64,000 bases of DNA from an uncultured Alphaproteobacteria bacterium (GCA_902515745.1 CABXWB010000002.1:6515-70514); one strand, 5' to 3'. Positions 14,628-46,956 are shown, numbered from the stretch's first letter. Notes: generated by a model from the sequence alone, not told the origin. Translations and numbers: made by a program.

Positions 14628-15785
14628 ATGGAAGTTTCAAAAAGAATATTTAATTTAGAAACAGAAACAGCATTCTCTATTCTTGCTAAAGCCAATGATT
14701 TAGTAGCCAAAGGTAAAGATATTATCAATTTGGGAATTGGACAACCTGATTTTCCAACACCAATTAATATTCAAGAAGCTGCTATTAAAGCAATTAAAGA
14801 TGGGTATCATGGATATACTCCATCAAATGGTATACCTGAATTACGAGATGCAATTTCAGAATTAGTACTCAATAAATATAAAACAAATATCAAACCAGAA
14901 AATATTTTAATAACTCCAGGAGGTAAGCCAGTAATTTTCATTTCAGCATTATTGTTAGGAAGTGAAGACTCAGAAATAATTTTTCCCGATCCTGGTTTTC
15001 CAATTTATAGATCTATGATTAAATATAGTGGCGCAAAGGCTGTACCATTGCAACTCTCTGAAAAAGATAATTTTGAAATTAATACTCAACAATTAAAAGA
15101 ATTAATTTCTGATAAAACAAGTTTGATAATAATAAATAATCCTAACAATCCAACAGGATCATATATGAATAAAAAAAAAATTACTGATCTTGTTAATTTA
15201 TTAGAGCAGTACCCAAACGTATGCATTTTAAGTGATGAAATTTATAGTAATATTATTTTTAATAATGAACAAATGCCATCATTATTAGAATACGAAAGTA
15301 TAAGGGATAGATTAATAGTTCTTGAGGGATGGAGCAAAACATATTGTATGACTGGATGGAGATTAGGTTGGAGTATATGGCCAGAAAATTTAATTGAACA
15401 TGCTAACAAAATATGTGTGAATTATAATTCCTGCGCTACCTCAATTTCACAATATGCAGGATTAGAGGCAATAAAAGGTTCTCAGAAAGAAATAACAAAA
15501 ATTGTTAATGAATTTCAAAAAAGAAAAGAATACGTTTTCAATGAATTGAATAAATTAGAAAAAATTTCTTGTTTTGAACCGGGTGGTGCTTTTTATGCTT
15601 TCCCAAATATATCAAAAACTGGATTAAGTGGAAATAAATTTGCAGAAGTAGCACTTCAAGAAAAAGGTGTTGCTTTAGTTCCAGGCTCTAGCTTTGGAGA
15701 TAATGCTAATGAATTTGTTAGAATAAGTTTTGCTAATTCGATAGAAAACATTAAAGAAGCAATTAAAAGATTATCTACAATATGA
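14628..15785 (+). CDS. Pyridoxal-phosphate-dependent aminotransferase, class I (aspartate/aromatic type)
   Basis: 385 aa. Has NNPNNPTG and the PLP-lysine context WSKTYCMTGWRLGW. The stop overlaps the PII start (ATGA). Confidence 0.9.
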   Translation: MEVSKRIFNLETETAFSILAKANDLVAKGKDIINLGIGQPDFPTPINIQEAAIKAIKDGYHGYTPSNGIPELRDAISELVLNKYKTNIKPENILITPGGKPVIFISALLLGSEDSEIIFPDPGFPIYRSMIKYSGAKAVPLQLSEKDNFEINTQQLKELISDKTSLIIINNPNNPTGSYMNKKKITDLVNLLEQYPNVCILSDEIYSNIIFNNEQMPSLLEYESIRDRLIVLEGWSKTYCMTGWRLGWSIWPENLIEHANKICVNYNSCATSISQYAGLEAIKGSQKEITKIVNEFQKRKEYVFNELNKLEKISCFEPGGAFYAFPNISKTGLSGNKFAEVALQEKGVALVPGSSFGDNANEFVRISFANSIENIKEAIKRLSTI

Positions 15786-16123
15786 AAAAAATAGAAGCAA
15801 TCATTAAACCATTTAAACTTTCTCAAGTTAAAGAAGCTTTACATGAACTTGGAATATCCGGGATGACATTAGTAGATGTAAAAGGTTTTGGTAGACAAAG
15901 AGGATCAACTGGTGGAATTGATCCTAATGATGGGTATGATGATGAATTTTTAGCAAAAATGAAACTTGAAGTAATCGTCGAAGACAATCAAGTGGATAAT
16001 GTTATTGAGTCAATAAAAACTAGCGCTTATTCAGGAAAAATTGGTGATGGTAAGATTTTTGTATCGAATATTGAGCAGGTAATTAGAATAAGGACTGGTG
16101 AAAAAGACAGTGATGCTGTCTAA
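15782..16123 (+). CDS. glnB: Nitrogen regulatory protein P-II with divergent T-loop
   Basis: 113 aa. MKKIEAIIKPFKL, GFGRQ, GKIGDGKIFV and IRIRTGE are canonical PII motifs. The T-loop reads RQRGSTGGIDPNDGYDDEF instead of RQKGHTELYRGAEYMVDF. Confidence 0.9.
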   Translation: MKKIEAIIKPFKLSQVKEALHELGISGMTLVDVKGFGRQRGSTGGIDPNDGYDDEFLAKMKLEVIVEDNQVDNVIESIKTSAYSGKIGDGKIFVSNIEQVIRIRTGEKDSDAV

Positions 16124-16166
16124 TTTTTCTTTACTTTTATATAAAACCTTGTAATTAACCAATAAT

Positions 16167-16214
16167 CGTTCAACTCTTTTAGAGTCGGAAGTAGGCATTG
16201 TGCCGAAGGAACGC
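16167..16214 (+). promoter_or_regulatory. Glutamine riboswitch aptamer (glnA RNA motif), copy 1
   Basis: CGTTCAACTCTTTTAGAGTCGGAAGTAGGCATTGTGCCGAAGGAACGC. Closing helix is CGUUC/GAACG and the first hairpin is ACUCU/AGAGU. The conserved UCGGAAGUAGG core is present, followed by hairpin GGCA/UGCC and GAAGGAACGC. Confidence 0.8.
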
Positions 16215-16231
16215 ATGCAAAAGTTATAAAT

Positions 16232-16282
16232 CGTTCAACCTATTATAATAGGTCGGAAGTAAGCCAAAAGCTGAAGGAACGC
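16232..16282 (+). promoter_or_regulatory. Glutamine riboswitch aptamer (glnA RNA motif), copy 2
   Basis: CGTTCAACCTATTATAATAGGTCGGAAGTAAGCCAAAAGCTGAAGGAACGCG. Same architecture as copy 1, with compensatory hairpins (ACCUAUU/AAUAGGU and AGC/GCU). It ends 88 nt upstream of the glnA ATG. Confidence 0.8.
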
Positions 16283-16369
16283 GCATCAAAAGCAGATTTC
16301 ATAACTAGAGCATGATTTAACCGGGTAACGCTGGATAGCATACCCTTTTGTTGAAGTAAGGAGATAGAT

Positions 16370-17800
16370 ATGAAATTAAAAAGCTCGACTCCAAAAGATT
16401 TAATGTCTGAAATTAAAGATATGGACATTAAGATGGTTGATATGCGCTTTACTGATATACCAGGAACAACTCAACATTTTACAATACCAATTAAATTTTT
16501 AGACGAAGATATATTTTCTGATGGACTTGGTTTTGATGGATCTTCAGTAAGAGGTTTCCAAGAAATTCAAGACAGTGATATGATTGTTTTGCCAGATGCA
16601 ACTACTGCATACATTGATCCATTTTTTTCAGAAAAAACTTTAGCATTGCATTGTAATATTAAAGATCCTGTAACTTTGGTTGATTATAGTCGTGACCCAA
16701 GAAATATTGCTAAAAAAGCTGAAGCCTATTTAAAATCATCTGGTATCGGCGACACAGCATTTTTTGGTCCAGAAGCAGAATTTTTTGTCTTTAATAATGT
16801 TCAGTTTGATTCGGGATCAAACTTTGCATTTCATGAAGTTGATTCTGTTGAAGGTACTTGGAATAGTGGCGCAGATGAAAATCCAAACCTAGGACATAAA
16901 CCTAGACATAAAGAAGGTTATTTTCCTTTACCACCAGTAGATACACTTCAAGATGTAAGAACTGAAATGGTAATGACCATGCAAGACATTGGTCTGACTG
17001 TTGAAGCACATCACCACGAAGTTGCAACAGGTGGACAGTGTGAAATTGATTTAGAATTTTCACCACTCTTGAAGATGGCTGATGATATGATGAAATATAA
17101 GTATGTTGTTAAAAATGTTGCGAGGCAACATGGAATGACTGCTACATTTATGCCTAAACCTTTATTTGAAGATAACGGTTCAGGTATGCACGTGCATCAA
17201 AGTGTTTGGAAAGACGGTGACACATTAATGTATAAAGAGGGTAACTATGCTAACCTAAGTGATTTAGCTCTAAATTATATTGGCGGTATACTTAAACATG
17301 CACCTGCTCTTTTAGCTTTTTGTGCTCCTACTACTAATTCTTATAAAAGATTGGTCCCAGGCTTTGAGGCTCCTGTGAACATTGTTTATTCTCAAAGAAA
17401 TAGAACTGCATCTGTGAGAATTCCTGCTTATTCTCAAAGCCCTAAGGCAAAAAGAATGGAATTTAGATGCCCAGATCCAAGTGCAAACCCATACTTAGCA
17501 TTCTCAGCAATGCTAATGGCAGGATTAGATGGAATTAAAAACAAAATTGATCCCGGTGATCCAACAGATATAAATCTCTACGCTGCTAGCGATGAAGTTT
17601 TGTCTAAAATTCAATCTACGCCTGGATCTTTAGCTGAATCTCTTGAAGCTCTTGAAAAAGATCATGCATTTTTATTAGAGGGTGATGTATTCACCAAAGA
17701 TGTAATTGAAACTTATATTGGCTATAAAAAAGAGAGTGAGGTTGACCCTATTAATATTAGACCTCATCCTCACGAGTTCAAATTATACTACGACGTATAG
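16370..17800 (+). CDS. glnA: Glutamine synthetase, type I
   Basis: 476 aa. Has [18 protein letters not shown] and [13 protein letters not shown], plus an NLY Tyr context near the C-terminus. SD AAGGAG lies 7 nt upstream. Confidence 0.97.
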
Positions 17801-17820
17801 AATTATACTTATCTCTATAA

Positions 17821-17850
17821 AAAAAAACCGCCTTAGGGCGGTTTTTTTTT
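17821..17850 (+). terminator. Intrinsic (bidirectional-looking) terminator after glnA
   Basis: AAAAAAACCGCC-TTAG-GGCGGTTTTTTTTT: a GC stem flanked by an A-run and a 9-T run, 20 nt after the glnA stop. Confidence 0.85.
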
Positions 17851-17886
17851 ATGTTTTTAGAACAACACTTTTGATAAGAAATATTT

Positions 17887-19821
17887 GTGGCTAAAAAATC
17901 TACTTATAATGCTAGGGATATTGAAGTACTTGAAGGTCTTGAACCTGTTCGTAAAAGACCAGGAATGTATATTGGAAGCACAAACCAAGATGGCCTTCAT
18001 CATTTAGTTAATGAGGTATTAGATAATAGTATAGATGAAGTTTTAGCAGGTCATGCAACTGATATAAGTTTTCAATATAAAAAAGATGGTTCGATAAAAA
18101 TAAAAGATAATGGAAGAGGTATTCCTATTGATTTTCATCCAAAATATAAAAATAAAAGAGCACTTGAGGTAGTTTTAACTACACTTCACGCAGGTGGTAA
18201 ATTTAACAGCAATGCCTACAAAACCTCTGGTGGATTACACGGGGTTGGGATTTCTGTTGTAAATGCATTAAGCTCTTTATTAAAAGTTCAAGTCTTCAAA
18301 GATGGAAAAGTATATCAGCAAGATTATTCAAAAGGGAAAGTTAAAACAAAAATAAAAATTGAAAAATGTAGCAAAAAATTAAAAGGTACAGAAATTTCTT
18401 TTACCCCAGATGAAAGCATATTTGAAGAAACACAATTTGTTCCAAAAAAATTATATAATTTTATAAATATGAAATCAGTATTAGTTGGAGGAACAACCAT
18501 CAACTTTGAAATTGATAAAGAATTAATTAAAGATAAAACTCCTAACAAAAAAAGTTTTTTTTATAAAAAAGGAATTGAAGATTATTTTCAATTAGAATTC
18601 GCAAACAACTCTAAATTATTCGAAAAAAATTTTTTATTAAAATCAAAAATTAAAGATAATGAAAATTTTGAAACATTAATTTCATTTAATACAAATGAAA
18701 ATTCAAGCTTAATGTCATATTGTAACACTATTGCAACACCAGATGGTGGCTCTCATGAAAATGGTATTCGTAATGGAATTTTAAAAGCTATAAAACTTTA
18801 TGGCCAAAAAAATCAATTCTCAAAAATTAGTAATATTAATCACAGTGATATTTTTGATTACTCTAACTTAATTATTTCAATCTTTATCAATGATCCAAGT
18901 TTTGAAGGTCAAACTAAAAAAAGAATAATAATGCCAAATTTACAAAAAGAAATTGAAACAAAAACACAACAAGAATTTTTATTATGGTTAAATGCTAACA
19001 AGAAAAATTCAAAAATACTTTTAGATAATTTAATTGAAAGAGCACTTCAGAGAACAGATTTATCAAAAATTAAAGAGTTAGATAGAAAAAGTATTAAAGA
19101 AAGAAATCGTCTTCCAGGTAAATTGGTAGATTGTTCAAGTAAATCTATAAAAGACTCAGAGATTTTTATTGTTGAAGGTGACAGTGCCGGAGGTTCTGCT
19201 AAGCAAGCAAGAAATAGAGAATTTCAAGCAATTCTTCCTTTAAGAGGAAAAATATTAAATGTTTATAATGTTGGGTTATCTAAAATTGCTGATAACAATG
19301 AAATACAAAATCTTATTCAATCGTTAGGTTGTGGTATTGGAAAAAATTTTGAAATTTCAAAACTTCGTTATGAGAAAATAATACTAATGACGGATGCAGA
19401 TGTCGATGGTTCGCATATTGCAACTCTACTTATCACTTTTTTTTATAAATATATGAAAAGTTTAATTGATGAAAATAAACTATATCTAGCAATGCCTCCT
19501 CTATTTAAAATTTATAACAAAAATAAATCTTTTTATGCATATGATGAAAAAGAGAAAGATAAATTAATTGAAAAAGAATTTAAGTCTGACAATTATAACA
19601 TTACAAGATTTAAAGGTTTGGGTGAAATGCCAGCTGATCAATTGAAAGAGACAACAATGGATCAAAATAAAAGAAACTTGATATTAATTAATTCTGAAAA
19701 AGCAAAGAAAGATTTAAAAAATACAGAAAATTTATTTGAAACGTTAATGGGAAAACAAGCAGAGTTACGTTTTAAATTTATTCAAAATAATGCTAATTTC
19801 ATCAAAAATTTAGATGTTTAA
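17887..19821 (+). CDS. parE: DNA topoisomerase IV subunit B
   Basis: 644 aa. GHKL ATPase N-terminus (LEGLEPVRKRPGMYIGST, VNEVLDNSIDE), Toprim EGDSAGGSAK and MTDADVDGSHI. The length fits ParE rather than the ~800-aa GyrB. GTG start. Confidence 0.88.
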   Translation: MAKKSTYNARDIEVLEGLEPVRKRPGMYIGSTNQDGLHHLVNEVLDNSIDEVLAGHATDISFQYKKDGSIKIKDNGRGIPIDFHPKYKNKRALEVVLTTLHAGGKFNSNAYKTSGGLHGVGISVVNALSSLLKVQVFKDGKVYQQDYSKGKVKTKIKIEKCSKKLKGTEISFTPDESIFEETQFVPKKLYNFINMKSVLVGGTTINFEIDKELIKDKTPNKKSFFYKKGIEDYFQLEFANNSKLFEKNFLLKSKIKDNENFETLISFNTNENSSLMSYCNTIATPDGGSHENGIRNGILKAIKLYGQKNQFSKISNINHSDIFDYSNLIISIFINDPSFEGQTKKRIIMPNLQKEIETKTQQEFLLWLNANKKNSKILLDNLIERALQRTDLSKIKELDRKSIKERNRLPGKLVDCSSKSIKDSEIFIVEGDSAGGSAKQARNREFQAILPLRGKILNVYNVGLSKIADNNEIQNLIQSLGCGIGKNFEISKLRYEKIILMTDADVDGSHIATLLITFFYKYMKSLIDENKLYLAMPPLFKIYNKNKSFYAYDEKEKDKLIEKEFKSDNYNITRFKGLGEMPADQLKETTMDQNKRNLILINSEKAKKDLKNTENLFETLMGKQAELRFKFIQNNANFIKNLDV

Positions 19822-29919: not shown

Positions 29920-30061
29920 TTTTGCTAATAGCTTTTTTTCTTTTAAAAATATTTGATTTCAGTTTTTTTTCTAACCTTTTTATTCTTGTTAAGCGTATTT
30001 CTTTTTTAGAATCATTTTTTGTTTGATGTGTTTCTTTTTCTTTATTTAATTTATCTGTCAT
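29912..30061 (-). CDS. Small lysine-rich hypothetical protein (49 aa), translationally coupled to murA
   Basis: My translation is MTDKLNKEKETHQTKNDSKKEIRLTRIKRLEKKLKSNIFKRKKAISKNG. Its stop overlaps the murA ATG (AATGGATAA). It fills an otherwise empty 150-nt gap. No homology could be assessed. Confidence 0.35.
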   Translation of the reverse strand: MTDKLNKEKETHQTKNDSKKEIRLTRIKRLEKKLKSNIFKRKKAISKNG

Positions 30062-30070
30062 AAATAAGAT

Positions 30071-30256
30071 TTAATTATTATTATTTTTTTTTAATCCATT
30101 TTTAGAGCATTTCTTAGAACAATATAAAACATTCTTCCAATCTCTTTCCCATTTTTTTCTCCAAGAGAATGGCTTATTGCAAACAATACAAACTTTAGAT
30201 GGTAAGTTTCTCTTCAAGATTTTACTCAAATAGGTAAAAATATCCGTAGGCAACAA
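30071..30256 (-). CDS. DUF2256-type zinc-ribbon protein
   Basis: [29 protein letters not shown] matches the DUF2256 pattern CxxCxxPFxWRKKW...YCSxxC. The listed start is a TTG. An internal TTG at 30229, overlapping the upstream stop, would give 52 aa. Confidence 0.7.
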
Positions 30257-41788: not shown

Positions 41789-43603
41789 TTAATTACTAAC
41801 TAAATCCTCTTCCATTTTAATTAATTCAAACCATCTATTTTCTTTTGTATTGAGATCACTATTAAGAACTTCCATTTTGGAAGTTATTTCTTGATAGCGT
41901 TCAAAATTTTCCAAATATAGGTTTGTATCCTTCAATTCATTTTTAATATCTTCTAATTCTTGTTGAATTTTTTTTATTTGGTTTGGTAATTGCTCTAATT
42001 CATATTGAAACTTATATGATAGTTTAGCTTTAGAATTTTTTACTTTGTTATTTTCTGAATATGATTTTTTTGTTTCCTTATTTTTAGTAACTTGTTGATT
42101 TTCGGATTTCAAAAAATCACTGTATCCACCAAAAAATAATGATACATTCCCATCCTCTTTGAAATGTAGAATTTTATTTACAGTTTGATCTAAAAAATCT
42201 CGATCATGCGATACTATTAATAACGTTCCATTATAATTTGATAACATTTCAGTTAACAGATCTAGTGTTTCTAAATCTAGATCATTTGTTGGCTCATCTA
42301 AAATAAGTCCAGTCTTTGGATTAGCTAATACTTTTGCTAAAAGTAATCTATTTTGCTCTCCTCCTGATAATGTTTGTATCGTATGATTGACATTTTTAGG
42401 ATCAAACTGAAAATCTTTCACATAGCTACAGACATGCCTATCTCTTCCCTGAACTTTTAAATAGTCTCCTCCAGAGGGAACTAAAATATCTTTAATAGAT
42501 TTTCTGCCATTAAGATCATTACGCATCTGATCAAAATAAGAAAATTCTAAATTTTTTTTGAGCTTGATTTTACCTTTAGAAATTTTTATTTCATTAAGGA
42601 TTGTTCGAAGAAAAGTTGATTTACCACTTCCATTATTTCCTAACAAACCGATACGATCATTTTTTGAAATTTTTATTGAGAGATTTTTAAAAATAAATTC
42701 ACTTTGATTTGGATATTTCACAAACACTTCTTGAAGTTCAGCAATAAATTTAGATTGATCAGTAGATTTTTTAGATACTTGCGGTCTTAAAGATTTAATT
42801 GCACTTCTATAAGAAGCTTCATCTTTTTCTAATTGCGCTTTTAATTCTTTCGCTCTTTTTAATCTTTTTTCATTCCTCTTTACACGAGCTTTAACGCCTT
42901 TATTTGCCCACTCAAGTTCAATATTAACAAATTGCTTTCTATTTCTTAATTCTCTATATTCTTGATCTAGTAACTCCTCTGACCATTTATCAAAATCTTT
43001 AAATCCTCTAGGACTTACTCGTAATTTTCCCCTATCTATCCAAAATACTTTATTGGTAAAATTACTTAAAAAAGTTCTATCATGGCTCACACATATAATT
43101 GTTTTATTTAAATTGCGTAAGTAACTTTCTAGCCATTCGATGCATTGCAAATCTAGATGATTGGTTGGCTCATCTAATAACAAAACATCGGAGTCCTTTA
43201 ATAAAGATCGAATTAAATAAACTTTTCTTTTTTGCCCTCCTGAAAGATCTTCAACATTAGCAAATTTGTCTAAATTTAGTTTATTGCAAAATATATCAAC
43301 AAAATGTTTATTTTGTTCGTTAAGTAAATCTGAAAAATTCTCTTCAATGGTTTTGTTATCTAGTTTTTCAAATTTCTGATTAAAATATCCAACTTTTAGA
43401 TTTGGATAATTCCATAATTCTCCCGCATCTAAATCTTGATCACCATTTATAGTTTTCATAAGTGTTGTTTTGCCAACACCATTTTTACCAACAAGCGCAA
43501 TCATATCACCCTTGTGTAAATTTAAGTTTAGATCTTGGAAAATAACTTTTTTGCCAAATTTGATTTCTACATCTCTTAGAGAAAATAATAAATCACTAGC
43601 CAC
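41789..43603 (-). CDS. ABC-F family ATPase (Uup/YheS-like)
   Basis: 604 aa. Two ABC cassettes (GKNGVGKTT and GNNGSGKST; two LSGG(Q/E) signatures). No TM domain. C-terminal coiled-coil tail. Confidence 0.92.
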   Translation of the reverse strand: MASDLLFSLRDVEIKFGKKVIFQDLNLNLHKGDMIALVGKNGVGKTTLMKTINGDQDLDAGELWNYPNLKVGYFNQKFEKLDNKTIEENFSDLLNEQNKHFVDIFCNKLNLDKFANVEDLSGGQKRKVYLIRSLLKDSDVLLLDEPTNHLDLQCIEWLESYLRNLNKTIICVSHDRTFLSNFTNKVFWIDRGKLRVSPRGFKDFDKWSEELLDQEYRELRNRKQFVNIELEWANKGVKARVKRNEKRLKRAKELKAQLEKDEASYRSAIKSLRPQVSKKSTDQSKFIAELQEVFVKYPNQSEFIFKNLSIKISKNDRIGLLGNNGSGKSTFLRTILNEIKISKGKIKLKKNLEFSYFDQMRNDLNGRKSIKDILVPSGGDYLKVQGRDRHVCSYVKDFQFDPKNVNHTIQTLSGGEQNRLLLAKVLANPKTGLILDEPTNDLDLETLDLLTEMLSNYNGTLLIVSHDRDFLDQTVNKILHFKEDGNVSLFFGGYSDFLKSENQQVTKNKETKKSYSENNKVKNSKAKLSYKFQYELEQLPNQIKKIQQELEDIKNELKDTNLYLENFERYQEITSKMEVLNSDLNTKENRWFELIKMEEDLVSN

Positions 43604-43614
43604 TAATTTAAGTC

Positions 43615-43731
43615 TTATATAATTTTGTAATAAACAACAATAAAATCAAGGATCATAAATATTATAAATAGTATTGCCACTCTAGTTAATGACCATTGAC
43701 CTTTTGGAAAAATAAAATTTAGGAACTTCAT
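43615..43731 (-). CDS. Possible 38-aa hydrophobic peptide
   Basis: My translation is [38 protein letters not shown], with one TM segment. It fills the gap between the DsbA-like gene and the ABC-F gene. AAGGG lies ~12 nt upstream. No further support. Confidence 0.25.
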   Translation of the reverse strand: MKFLNFIFPKGQWSLTRVAILFIIFMILDFIVVYYKII

Positions 43732-43737
43732 ATTAAT

Positions 43738-46664: not shown

Positions 46665-46722
46665 ATATTTTGATAATTTTACAACGAATGAGCATAGCGT
46701 AATTGATGGACCATAAAATAAT

Positions 46723-46750
46723 GCGGACTTTTTAGTCCGCTTTTTCTTTT
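46723..46750 (+). terminator. Intrinsic terminator after the paralogue pair
   Basis: GCGGACT-TTTT-AGTCCGC followed by TTTTTCTTTT, 58 nt after the stop of paralogue B. Confidence 0.75.
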
Positions 46751-46956
46751 GATTATTATTAAATCAATTTAATTTATATCACTGTGGATAATAATTTTTT
46801 TAGATCCAATATATTTTTGGTGAAAATTATGATTCTTTTTTAAATTTTCCATTAAATTAGAAATTAAATCTTATAAGCTGTTATTTTTTAATAATAATTT
46901 TCAAAAACTTTTATGACATATTATTTAAATATTTATTAAAAAAAATGGGGGTAAAA

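What the first reader, a model, noticed from the sequence alone, without database searches (positions are those of the whole stretch)
16160..16290. Two tandem glutamine-riboswitch aptamers between the PII gene and glnA
The 246-nt glnB-glnA spacer is one of the longest non-coding stretches in this window. It contains two GC-rich islands with the same architecture.
- Copy 1: CGUUCAACUCUUUUAGAGUCGGAAGUAGGCAUUGUGCCGAAGGAACGC.
- Copy 2: CGUUCAACCUAUUAUAAUAGGUCGGAAGUAAGCCAAAAGCUGAAGGAACGCG.

Both copies have a CGUUC/GAACG closing helix and a hairpin whose sequence differs but stays paired (ACUCU/AGAGU versus ACCUAUU/AAUAGGU). Both also have the invariant UCGGAAGUA(G/A)G core, a second small hairpin, and GAAGGAACGC.

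This matches the published glnA RNA motif, a glutamine-binding aptamer class described mainly from cyanobacteria and marine metagenomes. Tandem copies suggest a steeper or two-threshold glutamine response acting directly on glutamine synthetase expression.
Basis: partly seen in the sequence, partly recalled or inferred. Interest (0 to 1): 0.7.

Follow-up and report, generated by a model that had tools for sequence, protein, structure and literature searches.

The report
Tandem glutamine riboswitch before glnA
The leader of the glutamine synthetase gene of this marine SAR11-like bacterium carries two genuine copies of the known glutamine-sensing RNA, an arrangement known since 2010; what is less ordinary is the conserved RNA around them, which looks built to switch the gene off when glutamine is plentiful.

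Summary
Rfam's glutamine riboswitch model (RF01739) hits window 16165-16217 (64.3 bits) and 16230-16285 (65.2 bits), both full length, against a threshold of 35 bits. Both lie on the glnA strand in the 246-nt gap between a PII-family gene and glnA.

The doublet sits upstream of glnA in every relative with enough upstream DNA except L161. These relatives have GlnA 72-100% identical and include a clade with no PII gene. Thirty distinct aptamer copies show compensatory changes in both hairpins.

The kind is already known. Tandem glnA RNAs upstream of glutamine synthetase in marine metagenomes were described in 2010, and 157 doublets were counted in 2022.

What I add is inferred, not shown:
- The 18-nt inter-aptamer linker and a 20-nt box after aptamer 2 are nearly invariant and complementary (helix A).
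- The same box is complementary to the glnA start codon or Shine-Dalgarno region (helix B).
- Helix A starts at the C after aptamer 1's P1 helix, which published work says glutamine binding captures, and it runs into aptamer 2's P1.

The likely logic is that glutamine weakens helix A, the box then masks the start site, and glnA is turned off. Phage copies of this riboswitch use a different, compact platform read here as an ON switch. The finding is a new member of a known kind, of modest interest.

The parts
15782..16123 (+). PII-family gene, 113 aa. Its start overlaps the stop of the upstream aminotransferase gene (ATGA). It is not part of the riboswitch and is absent from this position in a sister clade that keeps the doublet.
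   Evidence: Pfam PF00543, 115 bits. Below the NCBIfam GlnB and GlnK equivalog cut-offs. Loci L169-L172 and L180-L184 have no PII gene but carry two aptamers, shown by Rfam for all of them.
16105..16131 (+). Terminator-like hairpin AGACAGTGATGCTGTCT followed by AATTTTTCTT. It overlaps the PII stop codon.
   Evidence: Terminator scan. Conserved in the six aligned leaders of the PII clade, though the stem is also coding sequence.
16130..16157 (+). Promoter-like element: TTTACT (16130-35), a 16-nt spacer, then TAATTA (16152-57). It would place the transcription start about 16163-16165, at the first base of aptamer 1. This is inferred.
   Evidence: TTTAC(T/A), a 16-nt spacer and TAnnnn keep the same position in all six aligned leaders, while the spacer sequence differs. 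The consensus scan did not call it.
16165..16217 (+). Glutamine riboswitch aptamer 1. P1 is 16167-71 with 16209-13. The conserved C after P1 is 16214.
   Evidence: RF01739, 64.3 bits, model positions 1-53 of 53. Stem covariation.
16214..16231 (+). Inter-aptamer linker CAUGCAAAAGUUAUAAAU. It is nearly invariant and is the proposed anti-sequestor strand of helix A.
   Evidence: Alignments. Duplex with the box is -13.6 kcal/mol, with at most 1 of 1000 linker shuffles as stable. RNAalifold predicts the helix.
16230..16285 (+). Glutamine riboswitch aptamer 2. P1 is 16232-36 with 16277-81. The conserved C after P1 is 16282.
   Evidence: RF01739, 65.2 bits, model positions 1-53 of 53. Stem covariation.
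16291..16315 (+). Conserved box AGCAG-AUUUCAUAACUAGAGCAUGA, the proposed switching strand.
- Helix A (with the linker): 16310-14 pairs with 16214-18, 16301-06 with 16222-27, 16295-99 with 16228-32, and 16291-93 with 16233-35.
- Helix B (with the start region): 16296-16303 pairs with 16369-16376.
   Evidence: UUUCAUAACUAGAGCAUGA is invariant in the six PII-clade leaders first aligned, while the flanks diverge; other leaders carry variants such as CUUCCAUAACUAGCGCAUGA and UUUCCAUAACUAAGCAUGA. Duplex energies and shuffles. Growing-transcript folding.
16323..16345 (+). Hairpin GGGUA..UACCC between the box and the Shine-Dalgarno sequence, followed here by UUUUGUU. Its structure is conserved but its sequence is not. 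It is probably a spacer that brings the box close to the start site.
   Evidence: All 16 leaders fold into a hairpin here, with unrelated sequences and a mean z of -2.9. The U-run is inconsistent, so it is not a general terminator.
16358..16376 (+). glnA translation initiation region: Shine-Dalgarno AAGGAG at 16358-63 and AUG at 16370-72. UAUGAAAU (16369-76) is the exact complement of box positions 16296-16303.
16370..17800 (+). glnA, type I glutamine synthetase (476 aa), the regulated gene. A strong terminator follows at 17816-17853.
   Evidence: TIGR00653, 665 bits against a cut-off of 429. Pfam. Terminator scan.

Best explanation
This is the 5' leader of a separately transcribed glnA mRNA. 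It carries two functional type 1 glutamine (glnA RNA) aptamers that share one translational expression platform, and the platform most likely works as an OFF switch.

**Shown**
- There are two full RF01739 aptamers, and the doublet is conserved with glnA.
- The linker and the box are nearly invariant and mutually complementary (helix A).
- The box is also complementary to the glnA start codon or Shine-Dalgarno region (helix B).
- In the folding model, helix A and helix B exclude each other.

**Inferred**
- While the leader is being transcribed, the linker (16214-16231) pairs with the box (16295-16314) before the start site exists. This keeps the start site free, so glnA is translated when glutamine is scarce.
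- Helix A begins at C16214, the nucleotide after aptamer 1's P1. I equate it with the C that published structural work says is pulled into a long-range pair when glutamine binds, melting whatever helix is attached there.
- At its other end helix A runs into the 5' strand of aptamer 2's P1 (16232-35), which glutamine stabilises.
- Glutamine bound to the two aptamers therefore erodes helix A from both ends. The freed box pairs with UAUGAAAU (16369-76) and neighbouring bases, the start codon is masked, and glutamine synthetase synthesis falls.

Two aptamers acting on one helix would also sharpen the response.
For: **The aptamers are genuine**
- Scores are 64-65 bits against a threshold of 35.
- All 30 distinct copies keep the invariant cores and the C after P1. 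P2 and P3 show compensatory changes.

**The doublet goes with glnA**
- It is upstream of glnA in every one of 24 fetched relatives with enough upstream DNA except L161, down to 72% GlnA identity, with or without the PII gene.

**Helix A**
- The duplex is -10.3 to -13.6 kcal/mol, and up to -15.9 when aptamer 2's P1 strand is included.
- At most 9 of 1000 linker shuffles do as well, in each of 15 leaders.
- RNAalifold predicts it from 6 and from 15 sequences.

**Helix B**
- It is present in the MFE structure of 14 of 15 full leaders.
- Cognate box and start-region pairs beat non-cognate pairs (permutation p = 0.03).
- In L175 and L082 the codon change AAA to AAG goes with a box change from AUUUCAUA to CUUCCAUA, and the duplexes reach -18.3 and -16.8 kcal/mol.
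- In the clade without PII the box instead covers GGAGG, with 11-14 contiguous pairs.

**Order of folding**
- In growing transcripts helix A is in the MFE of 14 of 15 leaders before the start site is made. In 11 of the 12 PII-clade leaders (all those where helix A forms) aptamer 2's P1 is open at that stage.
- Helix B replaces helix A in 14 of 15 once the start site is included.

**Direction**
- PMC6212724 reports the G23-C60 long-range pair and the melting of the helix attached to P1.
- In 116 phage arrays the tail that starts at that C is complementary to the Shine-Dalgarno sequence 20-30 nt downstream and co-varies with it. The C-led tail is therefore the working strand of this class.
- Here the tail pairs with an anti-start box instead, which inverts the logic. 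That fits the expected repression of glutamine synthetase by glutamine.
Against: - There is no compensatory evidence for helix A. Eight of 10 core pairs never vary and 2 vary on one side only. Cognate against non-cognate permutation gives p of about 0.10. Its conservation could have another cause.
- Helix B in the window alone is unremarkable. Its -10.2 kcal/mol ranks 7th of 52 genes of the window tested the same way, and shuffle fractions range from 0.000 to 0.37 across leaders.
- Equilibrium ensembles show helix B dominating whether or not the aptamers are forced closed, and the helix A state is 2-8 kcal/mol less stable in 13 of 15 leaders. The model therefore needs kinetic control, or tertiary effects that the energy model lacks.
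- With both P1 helices closed and both Cs blocked, about 14 of the 19 helix A pairs could still form.
- The core of helix A is compatible with a folded aptamer 2, which also allows the opposite logic.
- Equating C16214 with C60 is my inference from the Rfam consensus and from Klähn's text. The Ren 2015 paper could not be read.
- No binding, structure-probing or expression data exist for this leader.
Confidence: 0.5

Rival explanations
1. The parts are the same but the logic is opposite. A folded, glutamine-bound aptamer 2 brings the linker and the box together and stacks on helix A. Glutamine would then stabilise helix A, keep the start site open and activate glnA.
For: The 10-pair core of helix A is predicted together with an intact aptamer 2. 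Aptamer 2's P1 abuts helix A with no intervening bases on the 5' side. The characterised members of this class are ON switches (PMC6212724), and the phage copies look like ON switches.
Against: Positive feedback of glutamine on its own synthetase makes little physiological sense. PMC6212724 itself calls negative regulation 'reasonable'. Helix A starts with the very C that glutamine binding is said to capture. Its inner end invades aptamer 2's P1 in the PII clade, so when helix A is full P1 is open. The architecture also differs from the ON type by an extra inverting element.
Confidence: 0.12
2. Helix A is a constitutive scaffold, like the leader-linker helix of tandem glycine riboswitches. It holds the two aptamers in a fixed geometry. 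The actual read-out lies elsewhere, for example in mRNA stability, Rho or a protein factor, and the match between the box and the start region is incidental.
For: Both strands of helix A are nearly invariant with no compensatory changes. This fits a sequence-specific tertiary or protein-binding role as well as it fits a switch. Helix B in the window is within the genomic background.
Against: The box's complementarity to the start site is kept in every clade, yet in different registers that follow changes in the local coding or Shine-Dalgarno sequence (p = 0.03). Folding of growing transcripts gives a clean exchange of helix A for helix B in 14 of 15 leaders. A structure-only hairpin is kept between the box and the start site.
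Confidence: 0.18
3. Control is by transcription termination. The hairpin at 16323-16345 with its UUUUGUU run is an intrinsic terminator, and the linker and box form part of an anti-terminator switch.
For: In the window, L002, L084 and L169 the hairpin is followed by a U-rich run. A hairpin is present in all 16 leaders.
Against: Most leaders have no U-run after the hairpin: tails carry 1-4 U in 8 nt in 14 of 16. The terminator scan did not call it. The hairpin sequences are unrelated, and no conserved strand competes with their arms. The genuine terminators nearby are much stronger.
Confidence: 0.08
4. There are two independent, 'pseudo-cooperative' riboswitches, each with its own expression platform. 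This is how tandem glutamine riboswitches are classed in the 2022 survey.
For: PMC9481103 lists glutamine doublets among pseudo-cooperative systems.
Against: Only 18 nt separate the two P1 helices here, and 6-11 nt in 12 phage doublets. That space holds no terminator, Shine-Dalgarno sequence or start codon, so aptamer 1 has no platform of its own.
Confidence: 0.04

Closest known systems
Type 1 glutamine riboswitch (glnA RNA motif, Rfam RF01739; Weinberg 2010, Ames & Breaker 2011, Ren 2015, Klähn 2018)
   Same: Both copies match the full model well above threshold. They have the P1, P2 and P3 architecture, the invariant CGGAAGUA and GAAGGAACG-C cores, and a position in the 5' leader of a nitrogen-assimilation gene. 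Type 1 riboswitches upstream of glnA in marine metagenomes are explicitly mentioned in PMC6212724.
   Different: The characterised members (gifB of Synechocystis, a Prochlorococcus DP aptamer) are ON switches in cyanobacteria. For the copies linked to glnA, the effect of glutamine and the host taxon were stated to be unknown. Here the host is an alphaproteobacterial single-cell genome. Its aminotransferase and trigger factor fall in >=90%-identity clusters with proteins NCBI names Pelagibacteraceae, and the platform looks like an OFF design.
Tandem (doublet) glutamine riboswitches (Weinberg 2010; Sherlock et al. 2022: 157 doublets, 4 triplets)
   Same: Two complete aptamers lie head to tail on one leader.
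   Different: The survey classes them as pseudo-cooperative, with multiple platforms. Here, and in 12 phage doublets, there is no room for a platform after aptamer 1. The 18-19-nt linker of this lineage is longer than the 6-11 nt of the phage doublets, and it is conserved and complementary to a downstream box.
Compact platform of gifB and of phage-borne RF01739 copies, in which the aptamer tail masks the Shine-Dalgarno sequence (read here as ON-type)
   Same: The working strand begins at the conserved C immediately 3' of P1.
   Different: In 116 viral arrays the start codon lies a median of 24 nt after the aptamer, and the tail itself pairs with the Shine-Dalgarno sequence. Here the start codon is 84 nt after aptamer 2, that aptamer's tail is variable, and aptamer 1's tail pairs with an intermediate box that is itself complementary to the start site. 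The extra layer would invert the logic.
Tandem glycine riboswitch (two aptamers, one expression platform)
   Same: Two like aptamers appear to feed one expression platform, with a conserved linker.
   Different: The aptamer class and ligand are unrelated. No inter-aptamer tertiary contacts or cooperativity are known or testable here.

Membership tests
Type 1 glutamine riboswitch aptamer (RF01739) | Covariance-model score at or above Rfam's gathering score (35 bits) over the full model | tested here: met
   64.3 and 65.2 bits, model positions 1-53 of 53, E = 6e-12 and 3e-12 for the 64-kb window. Confirmed on the 341-nt region.
Type 1 glutamine riboswitch aptamer (RF01739) | P1 closing helix, plus P2 and P3 hairpins that are kept by compensatory change | tested here: met
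   P1 (CGUUC/GAACG) is invariant. P2 pairs 1-4 have 0 of 120 non-canonical cells with 2-3 pair types each. P3 pairs 1-2 have 0 of 60. In one search, helices 4 and 5 have 5 pairs changed on both sides.
Type 1 glutamine riboswitch aptamer (RF01739) | Invariant junction nucleotides CGGAAGUA and GAAGGAAC, and the C 3' of P1 that forms the long-range pair | tested here: met
   Present in both window copies and in all 30 distinct copies from relatives. Whether the pair actually forms cannot be tested.
Type 1 glutamine riboswitch aptamer (RF01739) | Location in the 5' leader, on the same strand, of a nitrogen-metabolism gene | tested here: met
   The aptamers are on the + strand, 84 nt upstream of glnA (TIGR00653, 665 bits). 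The position is the same in 23 related loci.
Type 1 glutamine riboswitch aptamer (RF01739) | Selective binding of L-glutamine (millimolar KD) with a conformational change | not testable with these tools
   Needs in-line probing, ITC or NMR on the 16165-16217 and 16230-16285 RNAs.
Riboswitch (complete: aptamer plus expression platform that changes gene expression) | Ligand-dependent change in expression of the downstream gene | not testable with these tools
   Only a model is available: alternative helices A and B.
Tandem glutamine riboswitch doublet | Two complete aptamers adjacent on one transcript | tested here: met
   The two P1 helices are 18 nt apart. No terminator-like site lies between them.
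Anti-Shine-Dalgarno-tail platform (gifB and phage type; ON logic inferred) | The tail of the last aptamer is complementary to a Shine-Dalgarno sequence about 20-30 nt downstream | tested here: not met
   The start codon is 84 nt after aptamer 2, and that aptamer's tail is variable (CGC, CUU, CAG, CUG, CGA, CAC, CGG). In viral arrays the median distance is 24 nt.
Pseudo-cooperative tandem riboswitches (each aptamer with its own platform) | A separate terminator or ribosome-binding site after each aptamer | tested here: not met
   The 18-nt linker CAUGCAAAAGUUAUAAAU contains neither.
   131.8 against 202 (PRK10858) and 128.6 against 181 (PRK10665). Membership of the Pfam P-II family is met.

The most novel reading that the evidence does not exclude
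The glutamine riboswitches linked to glnA in SAR11-related marine Alphaproteobacteria are a distinct OFF-type variant of the class. Two aptamers flank a single conserved anti-sequestor strand and erode it from both ends when glutamine binds. Aptamer 1 acts through its post-P1 C, and aptamer 2 acts through its P1 strand. This releases a conserved box that masks the glnA start codon or Shine-Dalgarno sequence. If true, it would answer the question left open by Klähn et al. 2018 about what glutamine does to glnA in these organisms and which organisms they are. It would also give lineages that lack, or have only a divergent, PII system a direct RNA route from glutamine level to glutamine synthetase synthesis.
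Probability: 0.45. Interest if true: 0.5.

Novelty: new member of a known kind. Interest (0 to 1): 0.3.

Why it matters
Glutamine synthetase is the entry point of ammonium into biomass. SAR11-type bacteria dominate the surface ocean and are reported to lack the usual PII/NtrBC control (PMC3870248).

A glutamine-sensing RNA placed directly on glnA would be a minimal feedback loop for nitrogen assimilation in these streamlined cells. The class itself, and its tandem form, are already known, so the locus mainly adds a well-conserved and taxonomically anchored example.

The useful extra is a concrete, testable model for an OFF-type platform in a class where only ON switches have been characterised. 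It includes a natural comparison set: the phage copies with compact platforms against the glnA leaders with the extra box.

Tried and rejected
- **Other RNA families in the leader.** An Rfam E-value scan of 16080-16420 found only the two RF01739 hits and a sub-threshold Glutamine-II echo (16.4 bits against 33) over aptamer 2.
- **Intrinsic terminator as the platform.** Rejected as a general mechanism. The hairpin is conserved, but the U-run is not.
- **Leader peptide starting at the AUG inside the box (GCAUGA).** The ORFs read by eye from the leader sequences run from 2 codons to read-through into glnA with unrelated sequences, and there is no properly spaced Shine-Dalgarno sequence. Rejected.
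- **Sigma-54 promoter in the box.** There is no GG-N10-GC arrangement on inspection of the sequence. Rejected.
- **Alignment-free covariation test for helix A.** Cognate against non-cognate duplex energies were not significant (p about 0.10). The formal pair count shows no compensatory change. The helix therefore rests on complementarity and conservation only.
- **Equilibrium 'apo against holo' ensembles.** These did not show a switch, because helix B dominates in both. Only the growing-transcript analysis separates the two states.
- **Search of viral contigs for the lineage-specific linker.** No hits.
- **Papers not held.** Ames & Breaker 2011 and Ren 2015 could not be read. Structural statements come second-hand from PMC6212724.

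Full report
**1. Observation**

The PII-family ORF ends at 16123 and glnA starts at 16370, so the gap is 246 nt.

A scan of the whole window against Rfam 15 at curated thresholds returns two hits to RF01739 ('Glutamine riboswitch aptamer, glnA leader'). They lie on the + strand at 16165-16217 (64.3 bits) and 16230-16285 (65.2 bits). Both cover model positions 1-53 of 53, against a gathering score of 35, with E about 1e-11. Apart from six tRNAs, nothing else in the window reaches threshold. The two copies have G+C of 0.47 and 0.43 in a window of 0.296.

**2. Gene context**

The downstream ORF is a type I glutamine synthetase (TIGR00653, 665 bits against a cut-off of 429).

The upstream ORF belongs to the Pfam P-II family. 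It falls below NCBIfam's GlnB and GlnK equivalog cut-offs. Compared from memory with E. coli GlnB, its T-loop (GFGRQRGSTGGIDPNDGYDDEF) does not look canonical. Its start overlaps the stop of an aminotransferase gene.

A terminator-like hairpin overlaps the PII stop codon. A TTTAC(T/A), 16-nt spacer, TAnnnn element keeps its place in all six aligned leaders while the spacer sequence drifts. I infer that glnA has its own promoter and that transcription starts at about the first base of aptamer 1.

**3. Organism and relatives**

The window is contig CACIED010000005.1 of single-cell genome AG-913-B05, labelled 'uncultured Alphaproteobacteria'. Its aminotransferase and trigger factor fall in >=90%-identity clusters with proteins that NCBI names 'Pelagibacteraceae bacterium'.

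GlnA relatives of 70-99% identity are abundant in marine assemblies. I fetched 30 loci.
- Every locus with enough upstream DNA except L161 has two full RF01739 hits directly upstream of glnA.
- This includes a clade (GlnA 72-74% identical; a MAG labelled Pelagibacteraceae) where the upstream neighbours are trigger factor and two tRNAs, with no PII gene.
- The doublet therefore belongs to glnA, not to the PII gene.
- GlnA relatives at about 66% identity and below, of which eight genome and several metagenome loci were scanned, have no aptamer.
- L161 (GlnA 87% identical, different upstream gene) also lacks it.

**4. The aptamers**

The 15 distinct leaders give 30 distinct aptamer copies.
- CGUUCA, CGGAAGUA, GAAGGAACG and the following C are invariant.
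- P2 and P3 vary freely but stay paired. P2 pairs 1-4 have 0 of 120 non-canonical cells, and P3 pairs 1-2 have 0 of 60, with several pair types each. The formal count finds 5 pairs changed on both sides, and no shuffle reaches the observed covariation score.
- Aptamer 1 always ends in ...GAACG-CAU(GC). The tail of aptamer 2 is variable.

**5. The rest of the leader**

Two stretches outside the aptamers are as conserved as the aptamer cores.
- The 18-nt linker CAUGCAAAAGUUAUAAAU (16214-31).
- A box AUUUCAUAACUAGAGCAUGA (16296-16315).

The linker and box are complementary (helix A).
- CAUGC pairs with GCAUG, AGUUAU with AUAACU, and AAAUC with GAUUU. In the PII clade a further 3-4 pairs invade the CGUU(C) strand of aptamer 2's P1.
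- The duplex is -10.3 to -15.9 kcal/mol. At most 9 of 1000 shuffled linkers do as well, in each of 15 leaders.
- RNAalifold predicts the helix from 6 and from 15 sequences.
- It has no compensatory support. Eight of 10 core pairs never vary and 2 change on one side only. A cognate against non-cognate test is not significant.

The same box is complementary to the glnA translation initiation region (helix B).
- In the window, AUUUCAUA (16296-303) is the exact complement of UAUGAAAU (16369-76).
- In L175 and L082, codon 2 is AAG and the box reads CUUCCAUA. The complementarity there runs over codons 1-5 (-18.3 and -16.8 kcal/mol).
- In the clade without PII, the box region pairs with the GGAGG Shine-Dalgarno sequence over 11-14 contiguous pairs.
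- Cognate pairs beat non-cognate pairs (p = 0.03).
- Taken alone, the window's -10.2 kcal/mol is only 7th of 52 genes tested the same way.

Between the box and the Shine-Dalgarno sequence every leader has a stable hairpin of unrelated sequence (mean z of -2.9). Most lack a U-run after it.

**6. How it probably works**

Folding growing transcripts gives a consistent picture.
- Once the box is made, but before the start site exists, helix A is in the minimum-energy structure of 14 of 15 leaders. In 11 of the 12 PII-clade leaders (all those where helix A forms) aptamer 2's P1 is open at that stage.
- Once the start site is included, helix B replaces helix A in 14 of 15 leaders.
- Helix A and helix B are therefore alternative partners of one strand, which is the usual anatomy of an expression platform.

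The direction comes from the literature and from a comparison set.
- Klähn et al. (PMC6212724) summarise the crystal and NMR work. Glutamine binding forms a long-range G23-C60 pair and melts the short helix attached to P1. In gifB that C and the bases after it mask the ribosome-binding site, so glutamine turns the gene on.
- In 116 RF01739-like arrays on viral contigs, the start codon lies a median of 24 nt after the aptamer. The tail beginning at that C is complementary to the Shine-Dalgarno sequence and co-varies with it: CAUCU with AGAUG, CAAUCU with AGAUUG, CACCU with GGGUG.
- In the glnA leader the corresponding C of aptamer 1 (16214) is the first nucleotide of helix A. Its partner is not the start site but a box that is itself complementary to the start site.
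- Glutamine should therefore weaken helix A at the aptamer 1 end through capture of the C, and at the aptamer 2 end through closure of P1. This frees the box, which masks the start site and lowers glnA translation.
- That is the physiologically expected sign. PMC6212724 calls negative regulation 'reasonable' but says it is unknown.

The weak points:
- Equilibrium ensembles favour helix B whether or not the aptamers are locked, so kinetic control has to be assumed.
- About 14 of the 19 helix A pairs survive in the 'bound' constraint set.
- Identifying C16214 with C60 is my inference.

**7. Comparison with what is known**

Both copies are members of RF01739 by every feature testable here. Tandem copies and association with glutamine synthetase, PII, GOGAT and Amt genes in marine metagenomes were reported in 2010 (PMC2864571). 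A 2022 survey counted 157 doublets and 4 triplets (PMC9481103). The kind is therefore known.

Differences worth recording:
- Only 18 nt lie between the aptamers, and 6-11 nt in phage doublets. Aptamer 1 therefore has no platform of its own, unlike the 'pseudo-cooperative' class to which the survey assigns glutamine doublets.
- The platform differs from the compact anti-Shine-Dalgarno tail of gifB and the phage copies (84 nt against about 24 nt to the start codon; an extra box and hairpin).
- The host is a Pelagibacteraceae-labelled alphaproteobacterium. The taxonomic affiliation of the glnA-linked copies was stated as unknown in 2018.

**8. Verdict**

The finding is an instance of a described arrangement, so its interest is modest.

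The linker, box and start-site architecture is a testable hypothesis for an OFF-type glutamine riboswitch. It is supported by conservation, complementarity and folding order, but not yet by covariation or experiment.

Noticed in passing
window 15782-16123 (and 14628-15785): There is a PII-family gene in a lineage whose proteins NCBI labels Pelagibacteraceae, although Pelagibacterales are reported to lack GlnB and GlnK (PMC3870248). It scores below the GlnB and GlnK equivalog cut-offs, and its T-loop (GSTGGIDPNDGYDDEF) looks atypical compared from memory with E. coli GlnB. Its start overlaps the stop of an aminotransferase gene (ATGA), which suggests translational coupling. The aminotransferase-PII pair is absent from the same locus in a sister clade (L169-L172, L180-L184).
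   Followed up: partly
L161:1150-1430: A GlnA 87% identical to the window's protein (471 aa) sits behind a different upstream gene (YbaK/tRNA_edit, minus strand). Its 140-nt leader has no glutamine aptamer, so the riboswitch has been lost or replaced in a close relative.
   Followed up: partly
The start codon lies a median of 24 nt after the aptamer. The aptamer tail is complementary to the Shine-Dalgarno sequence and co-varies with it. The downstream genes encode small proteins (e.g. MTKYQSMLFMRAVKKSLREK...).
   Followed up: partly
window 16209-16236: Because both aptamers have the same P1 sequence, the 3' strand of aptamer 1's P1 (GAACG) can pair with the 5' strand of aptamer 2's P1 (CGUUC). 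The linker then forms the loop. This 'domain-swapped' hairpin appears in the unconstrained MFE structures of several leaders. It could be a ligand-free misfold that matters for switching.
   Followed up: partly
window 17816-17853: A strong terminator follows glnA, with an A-run, a GC stem (CCGCC..GGCGG) and a T-run. It looks bidirectional. The next gene (gyrB/parE-like, GTG start at 17887) begins 34 nt later.
   Followed up: no
window 16291-16294 and codons 4-5 of glnA in relatives (e.g. L081:2052-2057): The conserved GCAG just upstream of the box can pair with aptamer 2's P1 strand. It can also pair with CUGC or CUGU at codons 4-5 of glnA in most relatives, which would extend helix B into the coding region.
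   Followed up: partly
window 29920-30221, 46665-46944, 43505-43737: These are other stretches of 230-300 nt without an ORF of at least 100 aa and without any Rfam hit at gathering threshold. They were not examined.
   Followed up: no
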